Below are positions 5,796-17,985 of a stretch of 32,000 nucleotides of DNA, piece after piece; position 1 is the first letter of the stretch; each line of letters begins with the position of its first letter. The notes under the pieces were generated by a model. That model searched no databases, had not been told where the DNA came from, and saw only the letters and a program-made list of their open reading frames with translations. A program made the translations under genes and the position numbers. This stretch comes from Kineococcus radiotolerans SRS30216 = ATCC BAA-149 (GTDB lineage Bacteria; Actinomycetota; Actinomycetes; Actinomycetales; Kineococcaceae), in contig NC_009664.2 of assembly GCF_000017305.1 (NCBI RefSeq), positions 3,300,001 to 3,332,000 of the forward strand. Reading direction: 5' to 3'.

Positions 5796-7256
5796 TCAGC
5801 CCTCCGCGCGGGCCGCCAGCGTCACCCGCAGCGTCTGCTCGGCCCCGTCGCGCACCACCGTCAGCTCCACGGTGCTGCCCACGGCCTTGCCGCGGATCGT
5901 CGCGGTCAGCGACTCGTACCCGTCGACGGTCCGGCCGTCCACGGCGGTGACGACGTCGCCCGCCCGCACCCCCGCGCCGGCGGCGGGGGCGCCGTCGGTC
6001 ACCGCGGCGACCTGCGCGCCCTCGCGGGTCACGTCGCCCACCGTCACCGACGCCGGCTGCTCGGCCAGGCTCACCCCGAGCCACGCGTGCTGCGCCGTCC
6101 CCGACTCCACCAGCTGGTCGGCGATCATCCTCACCTCGTTGGAGGGGATCGCGAAGCCCAGGCCGATGCTGCCCGACTGGCTGGAGCTGGAGGCCGAGCT
6201 CAGCGAGGCGATCGAGGAGTTGACCCCGATGACCTTGCCCGAGGAGTCCAGCAGCGCCCCGCCGGAGTTGCCCGGGTTGATCGCCGCGTCGGTCTGGATC
6301 GCGTTGGTGGCCGCGGTCTCCCCGGTCGTCGGCTGCTGGCCGAACGGGCTCTGCGACGGCGCCTGCTCCTCCGCCGAGGTCAGGACCGGCCGGTCCAGGG
6401 CGGAGACGATGCCCGTCGTGGCGCTGCCGGAGAGCCCCAGCGGGTTGCCCAGCGCCATCACGGCCTGCCCGGCGACGACGTCGTCGGAGTCGGCGAAGGT
6501 GGCGGCCACGAGGTCGGCGGGCGGGTCGGTGAGCTGGATCACCGCGAGGTCCGTCGCCGGGTCGGTGCCCCTGATCGTCGCCTCGTACTGGCGGCCGTCG
6601 TCCAGGGTCACGGTGATGGTCGCGCCGCTGCCCAGCCCGGCGACGACGTGGTTGTTCGTCACCACGTGGCCCGCGGTGTCGTAGACGATGCCCGAGCCCT
6701 CGGCGCTGCCGGAGGCGCCCTGCACGGTCACGGCGACGACGCTGGGGGCGACCGCGCTCACGACGGCCTGCCAGTTCACCGTCGTCTCGCTGACCCCCTG
6801 GACGCGGGTGCTGCCCGAGCTGGTCGAGGTGGTGGCCGCGGTGCCCGCGGTGTCGTCGAAACCCCCCACGAGGGCCCCGGTCAGCGCGCTCGCGGCCAGG
6901 GCGCTCGCGATCGCGGCGCCGGCCACCCCGAACCAGCCCGGGGAGCGGCGCGGGCCGCGCCCACCGCCCCCGCCGCGGCCGTGGTCGTCCCCCCCGCCGC
7001 CGGGCGGGGTCGGGCCCCCGGGGGTGGCCCACGGGTCGCGCTGGCCGTGCTGCGGGCCGGGGGACTGGTCCTGCGGGTGACCGGGCCGGTCGTACCCGGC
7101 CCGGTTCCAGTCCCACGCCTGGGGCTGGGTGGGGGCCGCGTCGTGGCCGCGGGCGCCGTCCTCGCCGCGGGCCCAGGTGGAGACGACCCCGCCGGCTGCG
7201 CCGGACGGGACGTGCTCGCCGCCCTCGGGGGTGTGGCGCTGGTGGGAGCCGTTCAT
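5796..7256 (-). CDS. HtrA/PepD-like trypsin-fold serine protease with C-terminal PDZ domain
   Basis: GSGIVYDTAGHVVTNNHVV (His), TDLAVIQL (Asp), INPGNSGGALLD (Ser), then a PDZ-like tail (GAQVAAVTDGAPAAGAGVRAGDVVTAVDG). The N-terminus is a Gly/Pro-rich disordered segment plus one TM helix (WFGVAGAAIASALAASALTGALVGG). Lies downstream of the RR-HK pair, as in mprA-mprB-pepD. Confidence 0.9.
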   Translation of the reverse strand: MNGSHQRHTPEGGEHVPSGAAGGVVSTWARGEDGARGHDAAPTQPQAWDWNRAGYDRPGHPQDQSPGPQHGQRDPWATPGGPTPPGGGGDDHGRGGGGGRGPRRSPGWFGVAGAAIASALAASALTGALVGGFDDTAGTAATTSTSSGSTRVQGVSETTVNWQAVVSAVAPSVVAVTVQGASGSAEGSGIVYDTAGHVVTNNHVVAGLGSGATITVTLDDGRQYEATIRGTDPATDLAVIQLTDPPADLVAATFADSDDVVAGQAVMALGNPLGLSGSATTGIVSALDRPVLTSAEEQAPSQSPFGQQPTTGETAATNAIQTDAAINPGNSGGALLDSSGKVIGVNSSIASLSSASSSSQSGSIGLGFAIPSNEVRMIADQLVESGTAQHAWLGVSLAEQPASVTVGDVTREGAQVAAVTDGAPAAGAGVRAGDVVTAVDGRTVDGYESLTATIRGKAVGSTVELTVVRDGAEQTLRVTLAARAEG

Positions 7257-7370
7257 CCTCGTTCACCTCGCGGAGTCGCAGGTCTGGGTCTCGTGCCGGG
7301 CGCGGGGACCGCGCTCACACCACCCAGTAACGGCCACCAGCCTGCGGGGCCACCCGGAGCCGCCTGGAAC

Positions 7371-8957
7371 CTAGCTGTGAATCGGCGAGGCACCCCGGGG
7401 CTCCCCGCCGTCCACCCCGTCGTCGGCGTCCTCGTCACCCAGGGGGTCCGGGCCCGCGGCGCGGAACCGCACCCGGAAGGTGGCGCCGCCGCCCGGCGTG
7501 GGGACCACCGCGACCGTCCCGCCGTGCACCTGCACCACCGTGGCCACGATGGCCAGGCCCAGGCCGGAACCCCCGCCCGTCCCGCGCCGGCGCGAGGAGT
7601 CCACCCGGTAGAAGCGCTCGAAGACCCGCTCGGCCTGCTCCGGGGTCAGGCCCGGGCCGTGGTCGCGCACCTCCACCACCGACTCCGGCCCCGAGGGCCC
7701 CGGCACCCGCCCGACCGCCACCTCCACCGGCGTCCCCGCCGGGGTGTGGTGCACGGCGTTGGCCAGCAGGTTCGTCAGGACCTGGCGCATCCCGGACTCG
7801 TCGGCGAGCACCACCGCGGACCCCGGGCCCACCCCCTCCGCCACGCCCACCAGCCGCACGGCCCGGTCGGGGGCCAGGGCCCGCGCGTCGTGCACGGCGT
7901 CGGAGGCGACGACGGCCAGGTCGACGGGTTCGCGCACCACCGCCCGCCGCCGCTGCGCCTCGTCCAGGCGCGCCAGCGCGAGCAGGTCCTCCACCAGCCG
8001 GCCCAGCCGCGTCGACTCGCCCTCGATGCGGCCCATCACGTGGGCCACGTCGTCGGGTTCGCGGACCGCGCCCTGGCGGTACAGCTCGGCGAAGCCGCGG
8101 ATCGCGGCCAGCGGGGTCCGCAGCTCGTGGCTGGCGTCGGCCACGAAGCGGCGCATCTGCTCCTCGGAGCGCTGCTGGGAGCGGAACAGCGCCTCGATCT
8201 GGGTCAGCATGGTGTTCAGCGCGGTCGAGAGCCGGCCGATCTCGGTGCCCGGCGGGGCGCCGGGCACCCGCTGGGACAGGTCGCCGGCCGCGATGGCCGA
8301 CGCCGTCCGCTCGATGTCGTCCAGCGGGCGGAAGCTGCGGCGGACGGCCAGGGCCGCGGCGAACCCGCCGAGGACGAGCACCGCGACCGAGACGGTGAGG
8401 GCGATGGTGCGGAAGTCCGACACCGTGCGGCTGGCCCCGGACAGCGGCAGCGCGACGGCGACGTTGACGGCCGCCCCCGTGCCCGTCACCGCGGCGGGGA
8501 AGACCAGCACCCGCCACGGGTCCCCGCCCCCGTCGTCGGGGACGGTGAACGCGCCGCCCTGGTGGGTGGCGACGTAGTCCGCGGTCAGCCGGGCCAGGTC
8601 CGGGGCGTTCACGCACGGGTCCGAGGGGCGCGCCCGCGTGCACTTCTCGACGGCGTTCGCGCCGTCGGCGTCGGCGAACTGCACGTAGTAGTCCGACAGC
8701 AGCAGCGACTCCGCGGACTGGTTGAAGGCCGGCCACGCGCTCTGGACCGCGGCCTTGCCCTTCTGCGCGAGCTGCTCGTCGACCTGGGTGCGCAGGTTGT
8801 TCTGCAGCAGGTGCAGCGACACCAGGCTCGTCACCGTCATCGCCGTCAGCAGCAGCAGGACCACGATGACCAGCAGGCGCACCCGCAGCGGCAGGCGCGC
8901 CTCGGCGGCCCGCACCCGCGCCCCGGCCGCCCGCCACCGGGGCGGGAGGGGACTCAT
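7371..8957 (-). CDS. Sensor histidine kinase (MprB-like)
   Basis: ATG 8957 overlaps the RR stop (ATGA). Two TM segments (LLVIVVLLLLTAMTVTSLVSL; IALTVSVAVLVLGGFAAALAV) flank an extracytoplasmic domain of about 150 aa. HAMP domain, H-box ADASHELRTPLAAIRGF, N box LLANAVHHT, G boxes DHGPGL and GGSGLGLAIV. The track shows this inside a spurious 1177-aa ORF. Confidence 0.9.
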   Translation of the reverse strand: MSPLPPRWRAAGARVRAAEARLPLRVRLLVIVVLLLLTAMTVTSLVSLHLLQNNLRTQVDEQLAQKGKAAVQSAWPAFNQSAESLLLSDYYVQFADADGANAVEKCTRARPSDPCVNAPDLARLTADYVATHQGGAFTVPDDGGGDPWRVLVFPAAVTGTGAAVNVAVALPLSGASRTVSDFRTIALTVSVAVLVLGGFAAALAVRRSFRPLDDIERTASAIAAGDLSQRVPGAPPGTEIGRLSTALNTMLTQIEALFRSQQRSEEQMRRFVADASHELRTPLAAIRGFAELYRQGAVREPDDVAHVMGRIEGESTRLGRLVEDLLALARLDEAQRRRAVVREPVDLAVVASDAVHDARALAPDRAVRLVGVAEGVGPGSAVVLADESGMRQVLTNLLANAVHHTPAGTPVEVAVGRVPGPSGPESVVEVRDHGPGLTPEQAERVFERFYRVDSSRRRGTGGGSGLGLAIVATVVQVHGGTVAVVPTPGGGATFRVRFRAAGPDPLGDEDADDGVDGGEPRGASPIHS

Positions 8958-9673
8958 CCCGCCGATTGCGCGACCCGCAGGACGTACCCCACGCCGCGCT
9001 TGGTGTGGATGAGCGGTTCCAGGCCCTCGGTGTCCAGCTTGCGGCGCAGGTAGGAGATGTAGCTCTCCACGATCCCGGCCTCGCCGTTGAAGTCGTAGTC
9101 CCACACGTGGTCGAGGATCTGCGCCTTCGACAGCACCCGGTTGGGGTTGAGCATCAGGTACCGCAGCAGCTTGAACTCGGTGGGCGACAGCTCCACCTCC
9201 CGCCCGGCCCGGCGCACCTCGTGGGAGTCCTCCTCCAGCTCCAGGTCGTGGAACACCAGCCGCCCGGTGTCCGGCCCGTCCACGCCCCCGGTGCGGCGCA
9301 GCACCGCGCGGATGCGGGCCACGACCTCCTCCAGGCTGAAGGGCTTCGTCACGTAGTCGTCGCCGCCGACGGTCAGGCCCGCGACCTTGTCGGCGGTGTC
9401 GTCGCGGGCGGTGAGGAACAGGACCGGGACGGCGCGCCCGCGCTCGCGCAGCTTGCGCGTCACGGTGAACCCGTCGACGTCGGGGAGCATCACGTCGAGG
9501 ACCACGAGGTCGGGGCGGAAGTCCTCGGCCAGCTTCAGGGCCTCGGCGCCGTCCCCGGCCGAGGCGACCTCGAAGCCGGCGAAGCGGAGGCTGGTGGCCA
9601 GCAGTTCGCGGATGCTCGGCTCGTCGTCGACGACGAGCAGCCGGGCCTCCGGGGAGGAGCTCGCAGATCTCAC
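8954..9673 (-). CDS. OmpR/PhoB-family response regulator (MprA-like)
   Basis: Receiver domain (RLLVVDDEPSIRELL...DLVVLDVMLPDVDG...PVLFLTARD) plus winged-helix output (LSPTEFKLLRYLMLNPNRVLSKAQILDHVW...HTKRGVGYVL). GTG start with no SD upstream, so possibly leaderless. Confidence 0.92.
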   Translation of the reverse strand: MRSASSSPEARLLVVDDEPSIRELLATSLRFAGFEVASAGDGAEALKLAEDFRPDLVVLDVMLPDVDGFTVTRKLRERGRAVPVLFLTARDDTADKVAGLTVGGDDYVTKPFSLEEVVARIRAVLRRTGGVDGPDTGRLVFHDLELEEDSHEVRRAGREVELSPTEFKLLRYLMLNPNRVLSKAQILDHVWDYDFNGEAGIVESYISYLRRKLDTEGLEPLIHTKRGVGYVLRVAQSAG

Positions 9674-9696
9674 GGGACCCAGTCTGCGCCGCCATC

Positions 9697-9714
9697 CTGG
9701 GAGAGCGCTGGGGA
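9697..9714. promoter_or_regulatory. Direct repeat CTGGGA-n5-CTGGGGA (11-bp phase) in divergent mprA-like / kinase promoter gap
   Basis: CTGGGA at 9697-9702 and CTGGGGA at 9708-9714, one helical turn apart, inside the 70-bp gap between GTG 9673 (-) and GTG 9744 (+). The geometry fits OmpR-family tandem half-sites; the binding protein is not established. Confidence 0.25.
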
Positions 9715-9743
9715 CCCGCCCGGCGGGGTGGGAGGATCACCGG

Positions 9744-10529
9744 GTGCTGAGGACGGTGACCGCCACCCGCTACGTCGCGCCCCTGCGGGAGGGCGGGAGC
9801 CTGCCGGGGCTGTGCGAGGCCGACGACCTCGGGACCTACGTGGTGAAGTTCCACGGCGCGGGGCAGGGCCGGCGGGTCCTGGTCGCCGAGGTCCTCGCCG
9901 CCTCCCTCGCCGGCGCCCTGGACCTGGCCGTCCCCGAGCTCGTCGTCGCCGTCGTCGACCCCGTCATCGGCCGCGGCGAGCCCGACGAGGAGGTGCAGGA
10001 CCTGCTCCTGCGCTCGCCGGGGGACAACCTCGGGATGGACTTCCTGCCCGGGTCGCTGTCCTTCGACCCCGTCGTGGACCCCGTCGACGCCGGCTGGGCC
10101 GCGCGGGTCCTGTGGTTCGACGCCCTCGTCCTCAACGTCGACCGGTCCTGGCGCAACCCGAACTCGCTGTGGTGGGGCGGCAGACCCTGGCTCATCGACC
10201 ACGGCGCCGCGCTGTACTTCCACCACGACTGGTCCCGCGCGGGTGCGAGCGTCGACCGGCCGCTGCGCCACGCCGAGGACCACCTGCTGCTGGCCGCCGC
10301 GGCCGACGTCGCCGACGTGGCCGACGCCTGCGCGGCCGCCCTCACCGACGACGTCCTGCACGCCGCGGTCACCGCGGTCCCCGACGGCTGGCTGGAGGGC
10401 GAGCCGGGCTTCGGGAGCGCCGACGACGTCCGCGCCGCCTACCTGGACTGGTTCAGCGCCCGGCTGAGCGGGCCCCGGACCTGGGTCGCGGAGCTGGCCC
10501 GGGTGCAGCGGGAGGCGCGTCGTGGCTGA
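9744..10529 (+). CDS. HipA-like / protein-kinase-fold small kinase (261 aa)
   Basis: GTG 9744 preceded by GGAGGA (9731-9736). Motifs: YVVKFHGAGQG (Lys + Gly-rich loop), VLNVDRSWRNPN (catalytic-loop-like D-x4-N), WLIDHGAAL (DxG-like). The N-terminus TRYVAPLREGGSLPGLCEADDLGTYVVKF matches proteins I recall annotated as HipA family kinase. Track ORF 9387.. is an upstream extension. Confidence 0.7.
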   Translation: MLRTVTATRYVAPLREGGSLPGLCEADDLGTYVVKFHGAGQGRRVLVAEVLAASLAGALDLAVPELVVAVVDPVIGRGEPDEEVQDLLLRSPGDNLGMDFLPGSLSFDPVVDPVDAGWAARVLWFDALVLNVDRSWRNPNSLWWGGRPWLIDHGAALYFHHDWSRAGASVDRPLRHAEDHLLLAAAADVADVADACAAALTDDVLHAAVTAVPDGWLEGEPGFGSADDVRAAYLDWFSARLSGPRTWVAELARVQREARRG

Positions 10530-10914
10530 GGCGCTGCACGTCTTCGAGTACGCCGCGGTGCGGGTGGTGCCCCGGGTGGACCGCGGGGAGTTCCTCAACG
10601 CCGGGGTCGTGCTGTGGTGCCGTCCCCTGGACCACCTGGCCGCCCGCACCGCGCTGGACGTGACCCGCCTGCGGGCGGTCGCCCCCGACCTCGACGTCGA
10701 CGCCGTCAGCCGCCACGTGCTGGCCTGGGAGGCGGTCTGCGCGGGCGCGCCCGCCGCGGGCGCGGCCGCGGCGGAACCCCCCGGCGTGCGCTTCCGCTGG
10801 CTGGTCGCCCCGCGCTCGACGGTCGTGCAGACCTCCCCGGTGCACTGCGGTCTCACCGCCGACCCGGTCGCGGAGCTGGACCGGCTGCTGCGCGCCCTCG
10901 TCACCGGCCCCTGA
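10522..10914 (+). CDS. DUF3037 domain protein
   Basis: 130 aa. The GTG start overlaps the kinase stop by 8 nt (GTGGCTGA). FEYAAVRVVPRVDRGEFLNAGVVLWC fits the DUF3037 N-terminal signature as recalled. Confidence 0.75.
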   Translation: MAEALHVFEYAAVRVVPRVDRGEFLNAGVVLWCRPLDHLAARTALDVTRLRAVAPDLDVDAVSRHVLAWEAVCAGAPAAGAAAAEPPGVRFRWLVAPRSTVVQTSPVHCGLTADPVAELDRLLRALVTGP

Positions 10915-10952
10915 CGCGGCCGGGGCGGCCGGGGGAGCCGCAGCTCCGCCCG

Positions 10953-10968
10953 ACCGCCCCGGGGCGGT
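10953..10968. terminator. GC palindrome between convergent DUF3037 and phoX genes
   Basis: ACCGCCCCGGGGCGGT is a perfect 16-nt palindrome, equivalent to about a 6-bp stem with a 4-nt loop as RNA. Confidence 0.3.
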
Positions 10969-10975
10969 GCGCCGG

Positions 10976-12985
10976 TCAGGCCCGGCGGACCTGCACGACC
11001 GACGGGCGCGGCTGGCCCGTGCCGTCGTAGGGGAAGGTCGAGGCCGGGTCGTCGATGGTCGCCCCGTCGACCTCACCGGGGTGCTGCACGGCGACGAACA
11101 CCGTGCGCCCGTCGTCGGCGATGACCGGCCCGCAGGTCTCCGCGCCCGTCGGCACCGAGAGGAACTGCCGGACCTGGCCGCGGTTCGGGCCGTCGACGAC
11201 GACCTCGTACAGGCCGTCGTTGGAGCCCAGCGTGTTGCCGTCGGTGGAGATCCACAGGTTGCCCGTGGTGTCGAAGGCCACGTTGTCCGGGCAGGAGATC
11301 GGCGAGACCTGCGCGGGGTCGAAACCGCCGAAGTAGGTGCTCTGGTCCTCCGGGTCGCCGCAGACGAGGACGAGGTTCCACGAGAACGTGGTCGCCGCGG
11401 CGTCGTCGCGCGCCTCGACGATCTCCACGACGTGCCCGTCCTTGTTGAGCGGGCGCGGGTTCGCCTCGTCGACCCCGGGCTGGCCCAGGGTGCCGCGGCG
11501 GGTGTTGTTGGTGCAGGCGACGTACACGCGGCCGTTGACGGGGTTGCGCTCGACGTCCTCGGGGCGGTCCATCTTGGTGGCGCCCACGACGTCGGCGGCG
11601 GCGCGGGTGTTCACCAGCACCTGGTCGATCGACATGCCCGGCACCACCGAGCGGCCGCCGCGGGTCAGCTGCACCCAGCGGCCGCGGCCGTCGTAGCGCT
11701 CGTCCTCGATGCCGTCGCCCTCGAAGACCGCGACGTAGAGGTCGCCGTCCTCCAGCAGGCGCATGTTGTGCTTCCGGTCGCCCTCGCGGTACGTGCGCTT
11801 GGAGACGAACTTGTAGAGGTACTCGAAGCGCTCGTCGTCGCCCATGTACGACACCACGCGGCCGTCGGCGGCGAGGGAGACGGTGGCGCCCTCGTGCTTC
11901 ATGCGCCCCATGGCGGTGTGCTTGCGCGGCGTGGAGGTCGGGTCGGAGGGGTCGACCTCGACGATCCAGCCGAAGCGGTTGGCCTCGTTGGGCTCGTTCT
12001 CGGCGCTGAAGCGCGGTTCGACGCGCTCCCAGGCGCGCCCGCCGCTGCCGTAGACGCTGTAGCGGTCGCTCTGGCCGCCCTCGACCTCGGGGGAGGAGAA
12101 GTAGCCGTTGAAGTTCTCCTCGCCCGACAGCACCGTGCCCCACGGCGTCGTGCCGCCGGCGCAGTTGCCGAAGGTCCCGACCGGCGTGCGCCCCTGCGGG
12201 TCGGCCTCGGTGCGCAGCGCCTTCGCGCCGGCGGCGGGGCCGGTGAACCGCATCGGGGTCATGGGCGTGATGCGGCGGTTGAAGTCCGAGCCGCGCACGT
12301 AGCCCCACGGGGAGTCCGCGTCCGCCCGGCGCAGTTCGACGACGGACATGCCGTGGGCGGCCAGCGAGATGCGCAGCTGCTCGTCGGTGGCGCTCTGCGC
12401 GTCGACCCAGTCGCGGAACATGAGTTCCTCGTTGGTGTACTCGTTGTTGCACACCAGCAGGGCCCGGTTCGGGTCCTGCAGGGGGACGATGGTGGTGTAG
12501 TCGTTGTTGTAGCCGAACTGCCCCAGCTGGGCCTCGGCGGTCTGGTTCTCGAAGTCGAAGTCCGGGGCGCCGGGCAGGATCGGGTCGCCCCAGGAGATCA
12601 GCGGCGCCCAGGTCCAGCCCGCGGGGACGTCGAAGGAGTCGACCTCCGCGGACACCGGGGCGATGACGTCGAAGTCCACGACGTGACCGGGGTCGAACGG
12701 GTCGGCGAGCAGGTTCACGTCGTCCCCGCCGCCGAAGGCGCTGGCGGGCTGGGCCTGCGCCACGGCGGCCCCGGCGACCCCCAGCCCGACGAGGCCGGCC
12801 AGCACGCCGCGCCGCGACACCGCGGCGCGCACGACGTCGCCGAAGTAGGCGTTGCCGGAGTGGTTGGGGGCGGGGACCGCGCACGAGGTGGCGCAGCGGT
12901 AGTGGCACGTCATGGGGCTGCGGCGGCCGGCGGGGGAGTACGGCAGCAGGTCCAGCAGCGGGCGGCGGTCGTCGGTGGCGGTCAC
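10976..12985 (-). CDS. phoX: PhoX-family (DUF839) Tat-exported alkaline phosphatase
   Basis: GTG 12985 preceded by AGGAGA. Twin-arginine motif SRRGVLAGLVGLGVAGAAVAQAQPASA. Family blocks: GWTWAPLISWGDP, GYNNDYT, NCAGGTTPWGTVLSGEEN, FGWIVEVDP, MGRMKHEG, TKMDRPEDVERNPVNGRVYVACTNN, NVAFDTTGNLWISTDG. The track embeds it in a spurious 1335-aa ORF. Confidence 0.9.
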   Translation of the reverse strand: MTATDDRRPLLDLLPYSPAGRRSPMTCHYRCATSCAVPAPNHSGNAYFGDVVRAAVSRRGVLAGLVGLGVAGAAVAQAQPASAFGGGDDVNLLADPFDPGHVVDFDVIAPVSAEVDSFDVPAGWTWAPLISWGDPILPGAPDFDFENQTAEAQLGQFGYNNDYTTIVPLQDPNRALLVCNNEYTNEELMFRDWVDAQSATDEQLRISLAAHGMSVVELRRADADSPWGYVRGSDFNRRITPMTPMRFTGPAAGAKALRTEADPQGRTPVGTFGNCAGGTTPWGTVLSGEENFNGYFSSPEVEGGQSDRYSVYGSGGRAWERVEPRFSAENEPNEANRFGWIVEVDPSDPTSTPRKHTAMGRMKHEGATVSLAADGRVVSYMGDDERFEYLYKFVSKRTYREGDRKHNMRLLEDGDLYVAVFEGDGIEDERYDGRGRWVQLTRGGRSVVPGMSIDQVLVNTRAAADVVGATKMDRPEDVERNPVNGRVYVACTNNTRRGTLGQPGVDEANPRPLNKDGHVVEIVEARDDAAATTFSWNLVLVCGDPEDQSTYFGGFDPAQVSPISCPDNVAFDTTGNLWISTDGNTLGSNDGLYEVVVDGPNRGQVRQFLSVPTGAETCGPVIADDGRTVFVAVQHPGEVDGATIDDPASTFPYDGTGQPRPSVVQVRRA

Positions 12986-15301: not shown

Positions 15302-17908
15302 TCAGGACCAGGGGCCCTCCGGGTCCTCGACGCCCTGGCCGCGGCCCTGGTCGAGCACGTCCACGCCCGCCCCGCCGAGGAGGCGGTCGGAACCGTTGTC
15401 CCCGTTCAGGACGTCCTTCCCCGTCCCGCCGACCAGGACGTCGTCGCCGTTGCCGCCGGAGATCCGGTCGTCCCCGTCGCCGCCGCAGAGCACGTCGTCG
15501 CCGTTGCCGCCGGTGATGACGTCGTTCCCGCCCAGGCCCACGACCACGTCGCGGCCGTTGGTGCCCTTCAGCACGTCGTCGCCGGCGGTGCCGCGGATCG
15601 TGGGCACCAGGCCCTGGCAGCGCTCGTCGAGGTCGATGCCGAACACGACCGGGTCGTGGTCGCTGGAGCGGTACGGGTTCGGCGCGTACAGCGCCGGGTC
15701 ACCGGTGTACTGGTACGCGAAGGACTCCACCGAGTTGATGTTCCAGTGGGTGGCGTCGGTGACCTTCGCCGTCAGCTCCGCGCTGGCCAGCGCGTGGTCG
15801 AGGGAACCGGACAGCGCGTCGAAGACGTAGCTGTAGCGGCCCGCGTCGAACCGCTCACCGAGGTCGACCAGGCCCGCGTCGGTGCGCAGGACCTCGATCG
15901 GGTCCTCCTGCGTGTAGGCGTTGAAGTCGCCCAGCGCCACCACGTCGGCATCGCCCGTGCTCTCGCGCAGGCGGGCGAGGAACCCGGCCAGCGACTGCGC
16001 CTGGCGGACGCGGTCGCCGTTGAAGGAACCCTGCCCGGTGTCGGCGTTGTCACCGGTGCCGGTGCCGCCCTTGGACTTGAAGTGGTCGGCCACCACGGTG
16101 AACGCGTCGCCGTCCTTGACGAACGTCTGCGCGATCGGCTCGCGGGCGTTGGACCACACGGTCTCGTCGACCAGGCCGACGGGCTCGCCGACCGGCTGCA
16201 CGACGTCCTGCTTGTAGATGATCGCGTTGCGGATGACGTCGCGGTCCACCGCGTACAGCTCGGCCGGCATCGGCACGTACGCCCACTCCTGGGACCCGGC
16301 CGCGGTGTTCAGCCGCCGCACCAGGTCCTCCAGCGCGAGGTCGGCGTTCCCGGGGTTCCGGCCGGTGGAGGCGGTGTCCTCGATCTCCATGAGGGTCACC
16401 ACGTCCGCGCCCAGCGCGCGGATCGCGGGCACGATCTTCCCGGCCTGCTCCTCCAGCTCGGCCTGGCTCGTGGCGCCGCGACCGGCCCCGCCGAGGGTGA
16501 GGAAGTAGTTCAGCACGTTGAACGCGCCGACCTGCACGTCGCCGCCGACGGCCTCGGGGGCCTGCGGGCGGGTGTCCTGCGGGGCGAAGACGCCGTCGGC
16601 GGTGCCGTCCGCCGGCTGCAGCCGCCACGCGTCGAAGCCGTACCCCAGCACCAGCGGCTCGGTGAAGCTGACCTCGTCCCCGACGCGCACGGGCGTGGTC
16701 GGGCTCAGGTACGGGCGGGCGGTGACGCTGGCGCGGGCGCTGACGGCGTCGTCGAGGACGATGCTGCGCCGGGCGTTCTCCTCGGCGATCGCCTGCGCGC
16801 CGGCGCCGGGACGGGCCAGTTCGGTGGGCTGCACGAGCACACCCCCCTCGGAGAGGGTCAGCTCGCCGAAGGACGTCAGGTCGAACACCTCGCTGACCGT
16901 GAGGCGGTCGGCGGGGACCACGCGCATCCCCTCCAGCCGCTCGCGGGCGGCGGCGTCGGCGGGCAGGTCCAGCGCGGCGGGCGCGGGCAGGTCGGAGGCG
17001 CCGCCCTCGGCGACGACCGCGACGCCGGAGGCGCGGACCTGCGTCTGGCCGCCGAACTCCTGCGCCTGGCCGGTCACGGTGACGGTGTCGCCGAGGTCCA
17101 CGGCCGCGGCGCTGAAGACGAACACGCCGTCGGAGGTGGCCGGGTCCCCGTCGCCGTCGCGGTCCTGCAGGTAGAACCCGGACAGGCCCGGGGTGTCGCC
17201 GACGACGACACCGGTGACGGTGACCTGCTGCCCGGCGAGCGGCGTCGTCGCGCCGGTGCCCTGCACGGCGCCGATCTCGACGGCCCGGCCGGGGGCGGGC
17301 GGCTGGGGGGTGGCGGCCGGGGCGTTGACCGCGCCGCGAGTGGCCGCGGCGGGGCCGGACCAGGTCGAGGTGCCGTCGGCGGTGACGGTGCGCGAGAGCG
17401 ACTGGCCGGCCGGCTCGGTGCCCGCCTCGGAGACGCCGATGTCGGTGCTGGTGCGCCCCGCGGCCGGGCCGTTCGTCGCGGCGAAGGTGCCCTCGTAGGA
17501 GAGGAACTCGAGCACCTCGCCGCCGCGGACGAGCGCGACGGCGTCGGGGGAGCCGTTCTGGACGCCGTTCGCCGGGTAGTCGACGACGGCCACGGCCGGC
17601 GCGTCGGCGGGCGCGGTGACCGCGGGCAGGGCGTCGGTGTCGTAGGTGGCGCCGGTGCCGCCGTTGTAGAGCACCACCGACAGGCCGGCCGAGCTCGTGC
17701 CCGCGGGCAGCTGCACCTCGACGAACTCACCGGAGTCGGTGCCGGCGTTGTCGTAGTGCAGCTCGGAGACGAAGGGGGTCGTCGGTGCGGCGGCGGAGGC
17801 GGGGGCCGCGGCGATCGCGGGCAGGCCCAGCGCCGTCAGCGAGACGGCGGCGGCACCGACGGCGGCGCGGCGGGCGCGGGGGCCCAGGCAGCCGGGGGGG
17901 AGGAACAT
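15302..17908 (-). CDS. ExeM/NucH-type secreted nuclease (LTD + endonuclease/exonuclease/phosphatase fold + Ca-binding repeats)
   Basis: Signal peptide (RARRAAVGAAAVSLTALGLPAIAAAPASA). LTD-like FVSELHYDNAGTDSGEFVEVQ. EEP core blocks (VGAFNVLNYF, VVTLMEIED, ALGDFNAY, SSDHDPV). C-terminal GGxGxD nonapeptide repeats. ATG preceded by GGAAGGA. Confidence 0.88.
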   Translation of the reverse strand: MFLPPGCLGPRARRAAVGAAAVSLTALGLPAIAAAPASAAAPTTPFVSELHYDNAGTDSGEFVEVQLPAGTSSAGLSVVLYNGGTGATYDTDALPAVTAPADAPAVAVVDYPANGVQNGSPDAVALVRGGEVLEFLSYEGTFAATNGPAAGRTSTDIGVSEAGTEPAGQSLSRTVTADGTSTWSGPAAATRGAVNAPAATPQPPAPGRAVEIGAVQGTGATTPLAGQQVTVTGVVVGDTPGLSGFYLQDRDGDGDPATSDGVFVFSAAAVDLGDTVTVTGQAQEFGGQTQVRASGVAVVAEGGASDLPAPAALDLPADAAARERLEGMRVVPADRLTVSEVFDLTSFGELTLSEGGVLVQPTELARPGAGAQAIAEENARRSIVLDDAVSARASVTARPYLSPTTPVRVGDEVSFTEPLVLGYGFDAWRLQPADGTADGVFAPQDTRPQAPEAVGGDVQVGAFNVLNYFLTLGGAGRGATSQAELEEQAGKIVPAIRALGADVVTLMEIEDTASTGRNPGNADLALEDLVRRLNTAAGSQEWAYVPMPAELYAVDRDVIRNAIIYKQDVVQPVGEPVGLVDETVWSNAREPIAQTFVKDGDAFTVVADHFKSKGGTGTGDNADTGQGSFNGDRVRQAQSLAGFLARLRESTGDADVVALGDFNAYTQEDPIEVLRTDAGLVDLGERFDAGRYSYVFDALSGSLDHALASAELTAKVTDATHWNINSVESFAYQYTGDPALYAPNPYRSSDHDPVVFGIDLDERCQGLVPTIRGTAGDDVLKGTNGRDVVVGLGGNDVITGGNGDDVLCGGDGDDRISGGNGDDVLVGGTGKDVLNGDNGSDRLLGGAGVDVLDQGRGQGVEDPEGPWS
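15350..15565 (-). repeat. RTX/hemolysin-type Ca-binding nonapeptide repeats (coding, about 8 units)
   Basis: GTNGRDVVVGLGGNDVITGGNGDDVLCGGDGDDRISGGNGDDVLVGGTGKDVLNGDNGSDRLLGGAGVDVL. At DNA level ACGTCGTCGCCGTTGCCGCCGG recurs 54 nt apart (15438 and 15492). Confidence 0.75.
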
Positions 17909-17941
17909 GCGGGTCCTTCCAGGGGGACGACGGTCGGCCGC

Positions 17942-17985
17942 ACGCTAGGTGCGACGTGTGACACCACCGTGTCCAGCAGGTGAAC
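17942..17985 (-). promoter_or_regulatory. PHO-box-like 11-nt direct repeats plus candidate -10 upstream of nuclease gene
   Basis: Minus strand reads GTTCACCTGCT GGACACGGTGG TGTCACACGTC (17985->17953), three contiguous 11-nt units with xxxCAC in phase. TAGCGT (17947->17942) is a TAnnnT -10 candidate about 34 nt upstream of ATG 17908. Confidence 0.45.

What the first reader, a model, noticed from the sequence alone, without database searches (positions are those of the whole stretch)
9744..10914. Translationally coupled HipA-like mini-kinase + DUF3037 pair: candidate undescribed two-gene system
Seen in the sequence:
- A 261-aa ORF with good SD (GGAGGA) carries an apparently intact kinase motif set: VVKFHGAGQG, LNVDRSWRNPN, LIDHG.
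- Its TGA lies inside the start of a 130-aa ORF (GTGGCTGA, 8-nt overlap), which implies coupled translation and fixed stoichiometry.
- The second protein has the FEYAAVRVVPRVDRGEFLNAGVVL signature I associate with DUF3037, a family with no assigned function and no visible HTH.

Established: HipA-family kinases are toxins of hipBA/hipBST modules and phosphorylate aminoacyl-tRNA synthetases.

Inference: this module differs from the canonical architecture. The kinase comes first, it is only about 260 aa so the HipA N-subdomains are missing, and the partner is not an Xre-type antitoxin. To my knowledge the role of this pairing (growth control, defence or signalling) is undescribed. It also sits back-to-back with the MprAB-like envelope-stress operon, with a 70-bp gap.
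Basis: partly seen in the sequence, partly recalled or inferred. Interest (0 to 1): 0.72.

Follow-up and report, generated by a model that had tools for sequence, protein, structure and literature searches.

The report
Short HipA-like kinase plus DUF3037 operon
Two overlapping genes in Kineococcus radiotolerans encode a small protein kinase and a partner protein of unknown fold. The pairing is already catalogued, and distant relatives have been shown to defend against phages, but this compact, chromosomally stable version has never been tested.

Summary
ORF A (9744-10529, 261 aa) is a Pfam HipA_2 kinase with all catalytic residues intact. ORF B (10522-10914, 130 aa) is a full-length DUF3037 protein. 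The two overlap by 8 nt.

The claim that the pairing is undescribed is out of date. Both proteins hit PADLOC candidate system PDC-M66. Homologous pairs have been validated as kinase-dependent anti-phage systems: DS-6/HipAD in E. coli and the HipA/DUF3037 genes of the Retron-Sda1 operon. In the retron operon, deleting DUF3037 was toxic.

The window still holds a distinct, untested variant:
- The partner is DUF3037 alone and lacks the basic C-terminal half of DS-6B.
- Kinase followed by DUF3037 was found at 160 of 160 testable loci, and 72 of 81 examined genome junctions have a 4-nt overlap.
- In Kineococcus the pair sits in a conserved housekeeping block and diverges at the same rate as its neighbours.
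- It is almost absent from plasmids and absent from the phage collections.
- The kinase is only distantly HipA-like (not HipA_C; nearest solved fold is CtkA).
- DUF3037 gives a confident model with no solved structural relative.

Best reading (about 0.5): DUF3037 restrains a toxic kinase. Main rival (about 0.3): a non-toxic housekeeping kinase-partner pair. This is a new variant of a known kind, of moderate interest.

The parts
9731..9736 (+). Shine-Dalgarno-like GGAGGA, 7 nt upstream of the kinase GTG start
   Evidence: Read directly from the sequence.
9744..10529 (+). HipA_2-family protein-kinase-like gene (261 aa, kinase core only). Predicted elements: Gly-rich loop R15-E16-G17-G18-S19, beta3 Lys K35, alphaC Glu E49, catalytic loop N131-V-D133-R-x-x-R-N138, and Mg-binding D152-H-G.
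   Evidence: - Pfam HipA_2, E 1.4e-14.
- PADLOC PDC-M66A, E 1.7e-18.
- PHROG phrog_3162, E 1.9e-16.
- The listed residues are invariant in 75 homologues.
- AF2 model has pLDDT 94.7.
- Best PDB fold matches are CtkA 3AKK (E 1.2e-4, TM 0.57) and PI4KII-alpha.
- hhalign to validated DS-6A: probability 96.6%, E 5e-10. D133 aligns with DS-6A D139, whose D139A mutant lost defence.
10522..10529 (+). 8-nt overlap GTGGCTGA between the DUF3037 start codon and the kinase stop codon (translational coupling junction)
   Evidence: - Read directly from the sequence.
- In 81 junctions examined, 72 have a 4-nt ATGA/GTGA overlap, 5 have 8 nt, 3 have 14-17 nt, and 1 is a frameshift artefact.
10522..10914 (+). 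DUF3037 gene (130 aa; the single domain makes up the whole protein). Signature motifs are F8-E-Y-A-x-x-R14-V-V-P17-R-V-x-R21-x-E23-F-x-N26-x-G28 and R90-F-R-W-L-x-A-P-R-S99-T-x-x-Q103-x-S-P-V-H108-x-G.
   Evidence: - Pfam DUF3037, E 1.6e-41, positions 1-118 of 118.
- PADLOC PDC-M66B, E 6.6e-9, but covering only profile positions 3-129 of 281.
- AF2 model has pLDDT 95.1.
- No PDB structural relative: best E 1.5, TM at most 0.22.
- No PDB sequence relative.
- hhalign to DS-6B residues 5-133: probability 88%, E 3e-6.
9674..9743 (.). 70-bp divergent intergenic region shared with the response-regulator gene. It contains the direct repeat CTGGGAG (9697-9703) / CTGGGGA (9708-9714), 11 bp apart.
   Evidence: - The repeat is conserved in alignments of three Kineococcus species.
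- No sigma-70-type promoter or intrinsic terminator was found by the simple scan.
- Its function is not tested.

Best explanation
The two genes form one translationally coupled operon. It belongs to the HipA_2-kinase / DUF3037 two-gene family, known as PADLOC PDC-M66 and represented experimentally by DS-6 (HipAD).

Proposed mechanism:
1. The kinase is a catalytically competent protein-kinase-like enzyme made only of the kinase core.
2. DUF3037 is made in fixed proportion from the overlapping reading frame. It binds the kinase through its universally conserved N-terminal beta-hairpin motif (RxxPxxxxxEFxNxG) and keeps it inactive.
3. When the partner is lost or displaced, for example by phage infection or stress, the kinase phosphorylates an essential cellular target and arrests growth.

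The Kineococcus version is a minimal form. It lacks the basic C-terminal half that in DS-6B is predicted to bind DNA. Any autoregulation must therefore work differently, possibly through the divergent promoter shared with the MprAB-like regulator.

Shown here: homology of both proteins to the validated system, intact catalytic residues, strict gene order and overlap, and vertical inheritance.

Inferred, not shown: binding, inhibition, toxicity, the target and the trigger.
For: - Family membership. HipA_2 and DUF3037 hits. PDC-M66A and PDC-M66B hits. DS-6A and DS-6B hit the same Pfam and PADLOC models.
- Profile alignments to the validated pair. Kinase: probability 96.6%, E 5e-10, with window D133 aligned to DS-6A D139. 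DS-6A D139 is the Asp of the NADR motif. DUF3037: probability 88%, E 3e-6.
- Published experiments on homologues. DS-6 defence is lost in the DS-6A catalytic mutant, and AF3 predicts an A-B complex (PMC13092281). In the Retron-Sda1 operon, deleting the kinase abolished defence and deleting DUF3037 was toxic (PMC12548924).
- Same gene order and start/stop overlap as DS-6, which has a 4-nt overlap.
- The kinase lies immediately upstream on the same strand in 80/80 testable genome loci and 80/80 metagenome loci. Overlaps of 4-17 nt occur in 80 of 81 junctions.
- Catalytic residues are invariant, and the kinase fold is predicted with confidence.
- An invariant Ser in the Gly-rich loop (S19; Thr in DS-6A) recalls the autophosphorylated P-loop Ser150 of HipA. 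That HipA fact is established knowledge recalled, and the parallel is an inference.
Against: - No short-form pair has been tested. The window proteins are only about 25% (kinase) and 21% (DUF3037) identical to DS-6.
- The partner lacks half of the PDC-M66B profile.
- Residues invariant in the short forms (R90, P97, R98, S99, H108) are not conserved in DS-6B. This suggests a partly different job.
- The genomic behaviour is unlike a typical toxin-antitoxin or defence gene:
  - Synteny with housekeeping genes is conserved across Kineococcus and within Streptomyces.
  - Divergence equals that of flanking core genes.
  - There is no GC anomaly and no tRNA, and no defence genes lie nearby.
  - Only 7 of 72,556 plasmid records carry it. 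There are 0 hits in 50,697 phage records and none in IMG/VR.
- No DNA-binding element is available for autoregulation.
Confidence: 0.5

Rival explanations
1. The pair is a housekeeping signalling or regulatory module, not a toxin-antitoxin or defence system. The short-form kinase and DUF3037 work together as enzyme plus obligate partner (activator, adaptor, substrate or reversing enzyme) in normal physiology. The mobile anti-phage long forms (DS-6/HipAD) would then be a derived offshoot that gained a DNA-binding tail.
For: - The position is syntenic and vertically inherited in Kineococcus. Neighbours are also conserved within lineages among the sampled Streptomyces and Streptosporangiales loci.
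- Divergence is in the same range as flanking core genes: kinase 78% and 86%, DUF3037 68% and 73%, against 67-97% for neighbours.
- Cross-order identity is 57-65% and cross-phylum identity about 45%.
- In Parabacteroides the context is housekeeping genes: ribD, pyrE, argH, gltA.
- The pair is essentially absent from plasmids, phages and IMG/VR.
- Short forms are far more numerous than long forms: 3178 versus 121 word-indexed hits.
- DUF3037 carries a constellation of invariant polar residues (R14, R21, E23, N26, R90, R92, S99, Q103, H108). This looks more like an active or ligand-binding site than a simple inhibitor surface.
Against: - The only experiments on the family point to a toxic kinase neutralised by DUF3037.
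- Strict stop/start overlap and an autonomous two-gene unit that moves between unrelated neighbourhoods across orders are typical of toxin-antitoxin modules.
- No conserved third gene or pathway context suggests a physiological role.
Confidence: 0.3
2. The kinase phosphorylates a small molecule or lipid rather than a protein, and DUF3037 is a partner enzyme or carrier in that chemistry.
For: - The nearest solved folds include the lipid kinase PI4KII-alpha (E 1.8e-4) as well as the protein kinase CtkA.
- Metagenomic DUF3037-NUDIX and DUF3037-Fic fusion proteins hint at nucleotide-linked chemistry.
- DUF3037 has invariant polar residues.
Against: - The best structural match is a Ser/Thr protein kinase.
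- The validated homologue behaves as a toxin whose catalytic Asp is needed for defence.
- The fusions are single cluster representatives and were not checked for assembly or gene-calling errors. Other apparent fusions in the same list proved to be frameshift artefacts.
- No metabolic genes are consistently linked.
Confidence: 0.1
3. The pair is a canonical HipA-family toxin, as framed by the first reader. The kinase would be a trimmed HipA that phosphorylates an aminoacyl-tRNA synthetase. DUF3037 would stand in for HipB or HipS.
For: - The Pfam family name HipA_2 ('HipA-like kinase').
- The nearest solved fold is CtkA, which I recall as HipA-like.
- A weak local match to the HipA helix NEYYCLLLAKELGLNVPD.
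- A Ser in the Gly-rich loop, analogous to HipA Ser150 (inference).
Against: - No HipA_C or Couple_hipA hit at E up to 1, and HipA does not hit HipA_2.
- The profile search against PDB sequences finds no HipA or HipT.
- hhalign probability against HipA is 1.9%.
- HipA is not among the top 50 Foldseek hits.
- The DUF3037 model has no similarity to any PDB chain, so HipS and HipB, if represented there, are excluded.
- The target is unknown even for DS-6.
Confidence: 0.05

Closest known systems
DS-6 / HipAD of E. coli (DS-6A WP_000389051.1 + DS-6B WP_000210934.1). Sources: DefensePredictor, PMC13092281; Brenes & Laub 2025, cited there but not held in the library.
   Same: - Kinase of Pfam HipA_2 followed by a DUF3037 protein, with start/stop overlap.
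- Both window proteins align to the DS-6 proteins by profile comparison.
- The catalytic Asp is equivalent: D133 in the window, D139 in DS-6A.
- Both pairs hit PADLOC PDC-M66A and PDC-M66B.
   Different: - Identity is only about 25% (kinase) and 21% (DUF3037).
- DS-6B is 275 aa. It has a basic C-terminal half (assigned to DUF1829, pI 9.2) that is predicted to bind DNA. The window partner is 130 aa and is DUF3037 only.
- Relatives of DS-6B are few (121 hits) and scattered among Enterobacterales and Pseudomonas, and DS-6 was found on prophages. The window clade is abundant, chromosomal and syntenic.
- The short-form signature RFRWLxAPRSTxxQxSPVH is not kept in DS-6B.
PADLOC-DB v2 candidate system PDC-M66
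   Same: Both window proteins hit the two models of this candidate: A at 1.7e-18 and B at 6.6e-9. The retron paper reports PDC-M66 calls across many DUF3037 neighbourhoods.
   Different: PDC-M66 is a bioinformatic candidate, not a mechanism. The B model is 281 positions long, and the window protein covers only positions 3-129. Whether PADLOC itself would call this locus was not run.
HipA-like kinase / DUF3037 genes of the Retron-Sda1 operon (PMC12548924)
   Same: A kinase plus DUF3037 acting as a self-sufficient pair. In that operon the kinase was needed for defence against phage Bas51, and deleting DUF3037 was toxic.
   Different: That DUF3037 protein has a C-terminal region similar to the DNA-binding protein of type III-A1 retrons, and it sits next to a retron RT and ncRNA. 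The window has no RT, no ncRNA and no such tail.
hipBA / hipBST toxin-antitoxin systems (E. coli HipA, HipT)
   Same: - Protein-kinase-like fold.
- Like HipT, a kinase reduced to the core.
- A small co-translated partner protein.
- Likely growth-arrest logic.
- A Ser in the Gly-rich loop.
   Different: - Different Pfam family: HipA_2, not HipA_C.
- No detectable sequence-profile relation to HipA.
- Gene order is kinase first.
- The partner has no HTH and an unrelated fold with no solved relative.
- The target is unknown.
Helicobacter pylori CtkA (PDB 3AKK/3AKJ)
   Same: It is the best structural match of the kinase model: E 1.2e-4, TM 0.57.
   Different: Identity is 12-13%. CtkA is a secreted stand-alone kinase with no DUF3037 partner (the biology is recalled from general knowledge, not tested here).

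Membership tests
HipA_2 kinase / DUF3037 two-gene family (PDC-M66; DS-6/HipAD) | First gene encodes a HipA_2 (PF20613) kinase | tested here: met
   Pfam E 1.4e-14, 54.4 bits against a cut-off of 27. PDC-M66A E 1.7e-18. hhalign to DS-6A gives probability 96.6%.
HipA_2 kinase / DUF3037 two-gene family (PDC-M66; DS-6/HipAD) | Second gene encodes a DUF3037 (PF11236) domain, immediately downstream on the same strand and overlapping or abutting | tested here: met
   Pfam E 1.6e-41 over the full domain. The overlap is 8 nt. Adjacency holds in 160/160 testable loci.
HipA_2 kinase / DUF3037 two-gene family (PDC-M66; DS-6/HipAD) | Catalytic residues of the kinase are intact (the Asp equivalent to DS-6A D139) | tested here: met
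   D133 aligns with D139. K35, E49, D133, N138 and D152 are invariant in 75 homologues.
HipA_2 kinase / DUF3037 two-gene family (PDC-M66; DS-6/HipAD) | Partner protein carries the C-terminal (DUF1829-like / DNA-binding) half seen in DS-6B and in the PDC-M66B model | tested here: not met
   The window protein is 130 aa and covers only positions 3-129 of the 281-position PDC-M66B profile. DS-6B covers 6-271. No room exists for a third gene: 61 bp separate it from the convergent phoX.
HipA_2 kinase / DUF3037 two-gene family (PDC-M66; DS-6/HipAD) | Kinase toxic when alone and neutralised by DUF3037; kinase-dependent protection against phage | not testable with these tools
   Shown only for distant long-form homologues in the literature. 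Genetics in an actinobacterial or surrogate host are needed.
HipA family proper (hipBA / hipBST) | HipA_C (PF07804) catalytic domain | tested here: not met
   No HipA_C hit at E up to 1. E. coli HipA hits HipA_C at 8e-52 and does not hit HipA_2. hhalign probability is 1.9%. The profile finds no PDB HipA or HipT.
HipA family proper (hipBA / hipBST) | HipA N-terminal subdomain (Couple_hipA), or a separate HipS protein supplying it | tested here: not met
   There is no Couple_hipA hit. The kinase is core only, 261 aa. The DUF3037 model matches no PDB chain, so it does not resemble any HipS or HipA structure represented there.
HipA family proper (hipBA / hipBST) | HTH (Xre-type) HipB antitoxin/repressor encoded in the operon | tested here: not met
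   The operon has only two genes. DUF3037 has no HTH Pfam hit and no structural match.
HipA family proper (hipBA / hipBST) | Phosphorylation of an aminoacyl-tRNA synthetase | not testable with these tools
   No target is known even for DS-6.
Defence-island / mobile-element cargo (typical context of anti-phage systems) | Location among defence or mobile-element genes, with patchy and horizontally mobile distribution | tested here: not met
   - Neighbours are RR/HK/HtrA, PhoX, an M3 peptidase and an ADH.
- Synteny is conserved in Kineococcus.
- Divergence equals that of flanking genes.
- No GC anomaly and no tRNA.
- 7 of 72,556 plasmid records, 0 phage records and 0 IMG/VR contigs carry it.

The most novel reading that the evidence does not exclude
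The short-form HipA_2-DUF3037 pair is not a toxin-antitoxin or defence module. It would be an ancient, vertically inherited kinase-partner unit with a physiological role. In this reading DUF3037 is a protein with no solved structural relative and an invariant polar site (R14, R21, E23, N26, R90, R92, S99, Q103, H108). It would act as an enzyme, ligand sensor or substrate of the kinase. The phage-borne anti-phage HipAD systems would then be a recent offshoot that added a DNA-binding tail.
Probability: 0.3. Interest if true: 0.6.

Novelty: new variant of a known kind. Interest (0 to 1): 0.4.

Why it matters
The HipA_2-DUF3037 family has only just entered the list of validated anti-phage systems. 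Neither the kinase target nor the role of DUF3037 is known.

The window shows the minimal and far more common form of the family. It has two small proteins, both predicted with very high confidence, and no accessory DNA-binding domain. That makes it the simplest version in which to ask how DUF3037 controls the kinase and what the kinase phosphorylates.

Its core-like, syntenic behaviour also raises a broader question. Was a mobile immune system recruited from a housekeeping kinase pair, or did it become domesticated into one?

If the short form proves toxic and defensive, systems of this kind are being missed because they lie outside defence islands. If it does not, annotating every HipA_2-DUF3037 pair as PDC-M66 or HipAD defence would be wrong for most of the family.

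Tried and rejected
- HipS-like or HipB-like nature of DUF3037. Rejected: the pLDDT 95 model has no PDB match (best E 1.5) and no sequence-profile match.
- Direct HipA homology of the kinase. Not demonstrable, so I treat 'HipA-like' as a fold or clan-level label only.
- Natural kinase-DUF3037 fusions as evidence of interaction. P0342, P0321 and P0305 looked like fusions. Their sequences contain garbled low-complexity stretches between good segments, so I judge them frameshift artefacts. L041 is the same kind of artefact.
- A conserved third gene or pathway. Neighbour clustering in 80 loci found only lineage-specific synteny.
- Mobile-element origin. No GC anomaly, no tRNA, and no hits in the phage collection or IMG/VR.
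- NCBIfam. No model hit either protein, although NCBI names the kinase 'HipA family kinase'.
- Simple sigma-70 promoter and terminator scan. It found nothing, which is uninformative in a 76% GC actinobacterium.
- The first diverse alignment (A1) was too divergent for the locus scan.
- Literature dead ends. The Brenes & Laub paper could not be read. The Payne 2024 preprint does not mention M66 or HipA. Gerdes et al. 2021 (abstract and section list only) names no DUF3037-type antitoxin. DefensePredictor Table S3, part 1, held nothing useful.
Full report
**1. Observation**

The window is 75.9% G+C. It comes from Kineococcus radiotolerans: both proteins are 100% identical to records of that species.

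The ORF at 9744-10529 (+) starts with GTG, 7 nt after GGAGGA (9731-9736). It encodes 261 aa. Homologues align from residue 2 (LRTVTATRYV), which supports that start.

Its TGA (10527-10529) lies within GTGGCTGA. The next ORF starts at GTG 10522, the first possible start in that frame. It is preceded by GGGAGG and encodes 130 aa ending at 10914.

Pfam assigns the first protein to HipA_2 (PF20613, E 1.4e-14). It assigns the second to DUF3037 (PF11236, E 1.6e-41, full domain). The one correction is that the neighbouring two-component operon is divergent (head-to-head, 70-bp gap), not back-to-back.

**2. Is the pairing real and conserved?**

A scan of one genome per species found at least 598 species with a close relative of the DUF3037 protein. 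The best 80 were all Actinomycetota: Streptomyces, Actinomadura, Micromonospora, Nocardia, Geodermatophilus, Rubrobacter and others.

With HMMs built from the homologue sets, the kinase lies immediately upstream on the same strand in 80 of 80 loci that have room for it. That set is 78 of the 80 scan loci plus the Streptomyces tsukubensis and Actinoallomurus loci fetched. The two scan loci without a kinase hit are cut at the contig end.

Junctions across 81 examples:
- 72 have the 4-nt ATGA/GTGA overlap.
- 5 have the 8-nt overlap seen in the window.
- 3 have 14-17 nt.
- 1 is a frameshift artefact.

A second scan used low-G+C short-form sequences against metagenomes. It gave 80 more loci (G+C 29-73%), and the kinase was adjacent in 80 of 80.

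Annotated records confirm the pair in Bacteroidota. In Parabacteroides distasonis it is 260 + 127 aa and lies between argH and gltA. The kinase is also present and annotated in Bacteroides finegoldii and Chondrinema litorale records, where I did not check for DUF3037.

**3. The pairing is already described**

- Both window proteins hit PADLOC-DB candidate system PDC-M66: A at 1.7e-18 and B at 6.6e-9.
- PMC12548924 reports that DUF3037 is 'strongly associated' with HipA-like kinases and that PADLOC calls the pair PDC-M66. In the Retron-Sda1 operon the pair defends against phage Bas51 without the retron parts. Deleting the kinase abolished defence, and deleting DUF3037 was toxic.
- PMC13092281 validates DS-6, renamed HipAD and credited also to Brenes & Laub 2025. 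DS-6A is a HipA-related kinase. DS-6B carries DUF3037 plus DUF1829. A catalytic mutant loses defence, and AF3 predicts A-B and B-DNA contacts.
- The supplementary tables gave me the DS-6 sequences, their gene order (kinase then DUF3037, 4-nt overlap) and the mutant (D139A).
- DS-6A is a strong HipA_2 member (1e-76) and hits PDC-M66A. DS-6B fills the whole PDC-M66B model.
- Profile comparison links the window proteins to DS-6. For the kinase, probability is 96.6% and E 5e-10, with window D133 aligned to DS-6A D139. For DUF3037, probability is 88% and E 3e-6.

So 'undescribed' no longer holds.

**4. What is different here**

(a) Architecture. The window partner is DUF3037 and nothing else. It covers only positions 3-129 of the 281-position PDC-M66B model. 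The missing part corresponds to the basic half of DS-6B (pI 9.2), which is predicted to bind DNA. There is no space for a third gene.

(b) Abundance. The short form dominates. Among the 150 best 50%-identity cluster representatives, nearly all are 120-145 aa. Word-indexed searches gave 3178 relatives of the short protein against 121 of DS-6B. All 121 are about 270-283 aa, mostly in Enterobacterales and Pseudomonas.

(c) Sequence signature. All short forms, from both high- and low-G+C lineages, keep RFRWLxAxRSxxxQ and mostly H108. DS-6B has FFRYFTNKKESIFQ at that place. The N-terminal hairpin motif RxxPxxxxxEFxNxG is shared by both forms.

(d) Genomic behaviour.
- In K. gynurae and Kineococcus sp. 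NBC_00420 the pair sits in the same block: MoaA, WXG100, DUF4031, HtrA, HK, RR | kinase, DUF3037 | M3 peptidase, and so on. Only phoX comes and goes.
- Identities to K. radiotolerans are 78% and 86% for the kinase and 68% and 73% for DUF3037. The flanking genes span 67-97%, so the pair falls within the same range.
- In the genome sample, 42 Streptomyces loci share the same downstream SDR gene. Streptosporangiales share a different set. Nothing is shared between orders.
- There is no G+C anomaly and no tRNA. The neighbours are ordinary genes.
- Only 7 of 72,556 plasmid records carry the kinase, and most of those are chromosome-sized or chromosome-like. None of 50,697 phage records does. No IMG/VR contig carries the short DUF3037.
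- PHROGs does contain related families, one of them 279 positions long. This fits the prophage-borne long form.

**5. The proteins**

Kinase. The model is confident (pLDDT 94.7). Its nearest solved folds are H. pylori CtkA (E 1.2e-4, TM 0.57), PI4KII-alpha and Fam20. HipA is not in the top 50. No PDB sequence matches the family profile, and hhalign against E. coli HipA finds only a 24-column stretch at 1.9% probability. HipA itself is HipA_C + Couple_hipA and does not hit HipA_2.

The kinase is thus a protein-kinase-like enzyme that is 'HipA-like' only at the fold level. From the model and the alignment I read these elements, all invariant in 75 homologues:
- Gly-rich loop R15-E-G-G-S19.
- alphaC Glu49.
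- Catalytic D133 and N138, within NVDRSWRN.
- D152 of LIDHG.

The Ser in the Gly-rich loop (Thr in DS-6A) recalls the autophosphorylated loop Ser of HipA and HipT. That parallel is an inference.

DUF3037. The model is also confident (pLDDT 95.1). It has three N-terminal strands, a helical middle, two short strands and a C-terminal helix. It has no structural relative in the PDB (best E 1.5, TM at most 0.22). It is therefore neither HipS-like nor HipB-like, and no solved structure represents its fold. Four uncharacterised viral proteins in BFVD share the fold (TM 0.55-0.64).

**6. Mechanism**

The best-supported reading carries the experimental picture of the long forms over to this pair:
- DUF3037 is made in fixed ratio through the overlapping stop/start.
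- It binds and silences a kinase whose activity is otherwise growth-arresting.
- Release lets the kinase phosphorylate an essential target.

I give this about 0.5. Homology, gene order, coupling and catalytic integrity are shown. Toxicity, binding, target and trigger are not. The core-like behaviour and the clade-specific invariant residues argue for caution.

The main rival (about 0.3) is a non-toxic physiological kinase-partner pair, from which the mobile defence version would derive. Minor rivals are a small-molecule kinase (about 0.1) and a canonical HipA-type synthetase kinase (about 0.05).

**7. Verdict**

The finding is real and well observed, but it is not a new system. It is a new, minimal, chromosomally fixed variant of a recently recognised kind. 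It is useful as the simplest model of that kind, and as a warning against labelling all such pairs as defence. Interest is 0.4.

Noticed in passing
window 9697-9714 (intergenic 9674-9743): The direct repeat CTGGGAG / CTGGGGA, spaced 11 bp apart, lies between the divergent response-regulator and kinase genes. It is conserved in three Kineococcus species. It may be a binding site for the OmpR-family (MprA-like) regulator. If so, the regulator could control both its own operon and the kinase operon.
   Followed up: partly
window 10976-~13000 (-): The phoX alkaline phosphatase gene (Pfam PhoX, E 9e-160, with a Tat-like signal) lies convergent to the pair. It is present in K. radiotolerans and K. 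gynurae but absent at the same spot in Kineococcus sp. NBC_00420. It is the only variable gene in an otherwise syntenic block.
   Followed up: partly
proteins P0267 and P0375: Two metagenomic cluster representatives fuse DUF3037 to other domains: NUDIX with Nudix_N (332 aa) and a Fic domain (385 aa). These hint at nucleotide-linked chemistry. I did not check whether they are assembly or gene-calling errors.
   Followed up: partly
BFVD entries A0A516KTX2, A0A6J5NRF1, A0A6G5YJM1, A0A516KZK0: Four uncharacterised viral proteins (125-287 aa) share the DUF3037 fold, with TM 0.55-0.64 and E 8e-4 to 8e-3. They could be prophage HipAD-type partners or phage-encoded mimics that neutralise the kinase.
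   Followed up: no
proteins P0342, P0321, P0305; locus L041: These apparent kinase-DUF3037 fusion proteins contain stretches of Arg/Gly/Pro-rich nonsense between good segments. That pattern is typical of frameshift errors in high-G+C assemblies, so they are not true fusions.
   Followed up: yes
window 6087-9053 (+), 7371-10904 (-), 8966-10663 (+), 10453-11076 (-): Very long ORFs run antisense to or out of frame with the real genes, including a 1177-aa ORF across the whole locus. GC3 analysis shows they are by-products of the 76% G+C content and not genes.
   Followed up: yes
window 15302-17944 (-): An 880-aa protein combines an endonuclease/exonuclease/phosphatase domain with four RTX calcium-binding repeats. 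Together with PhoX this suggests a cluster of secreted phosphate-scavenging enzymes.
   Followed up: no
database names of kinase homologues: Older records call this kinase 'aminotransferase class I and II'. No result here supports that name, and newer records use 'HipA family kinase'.
   Followed up: partly
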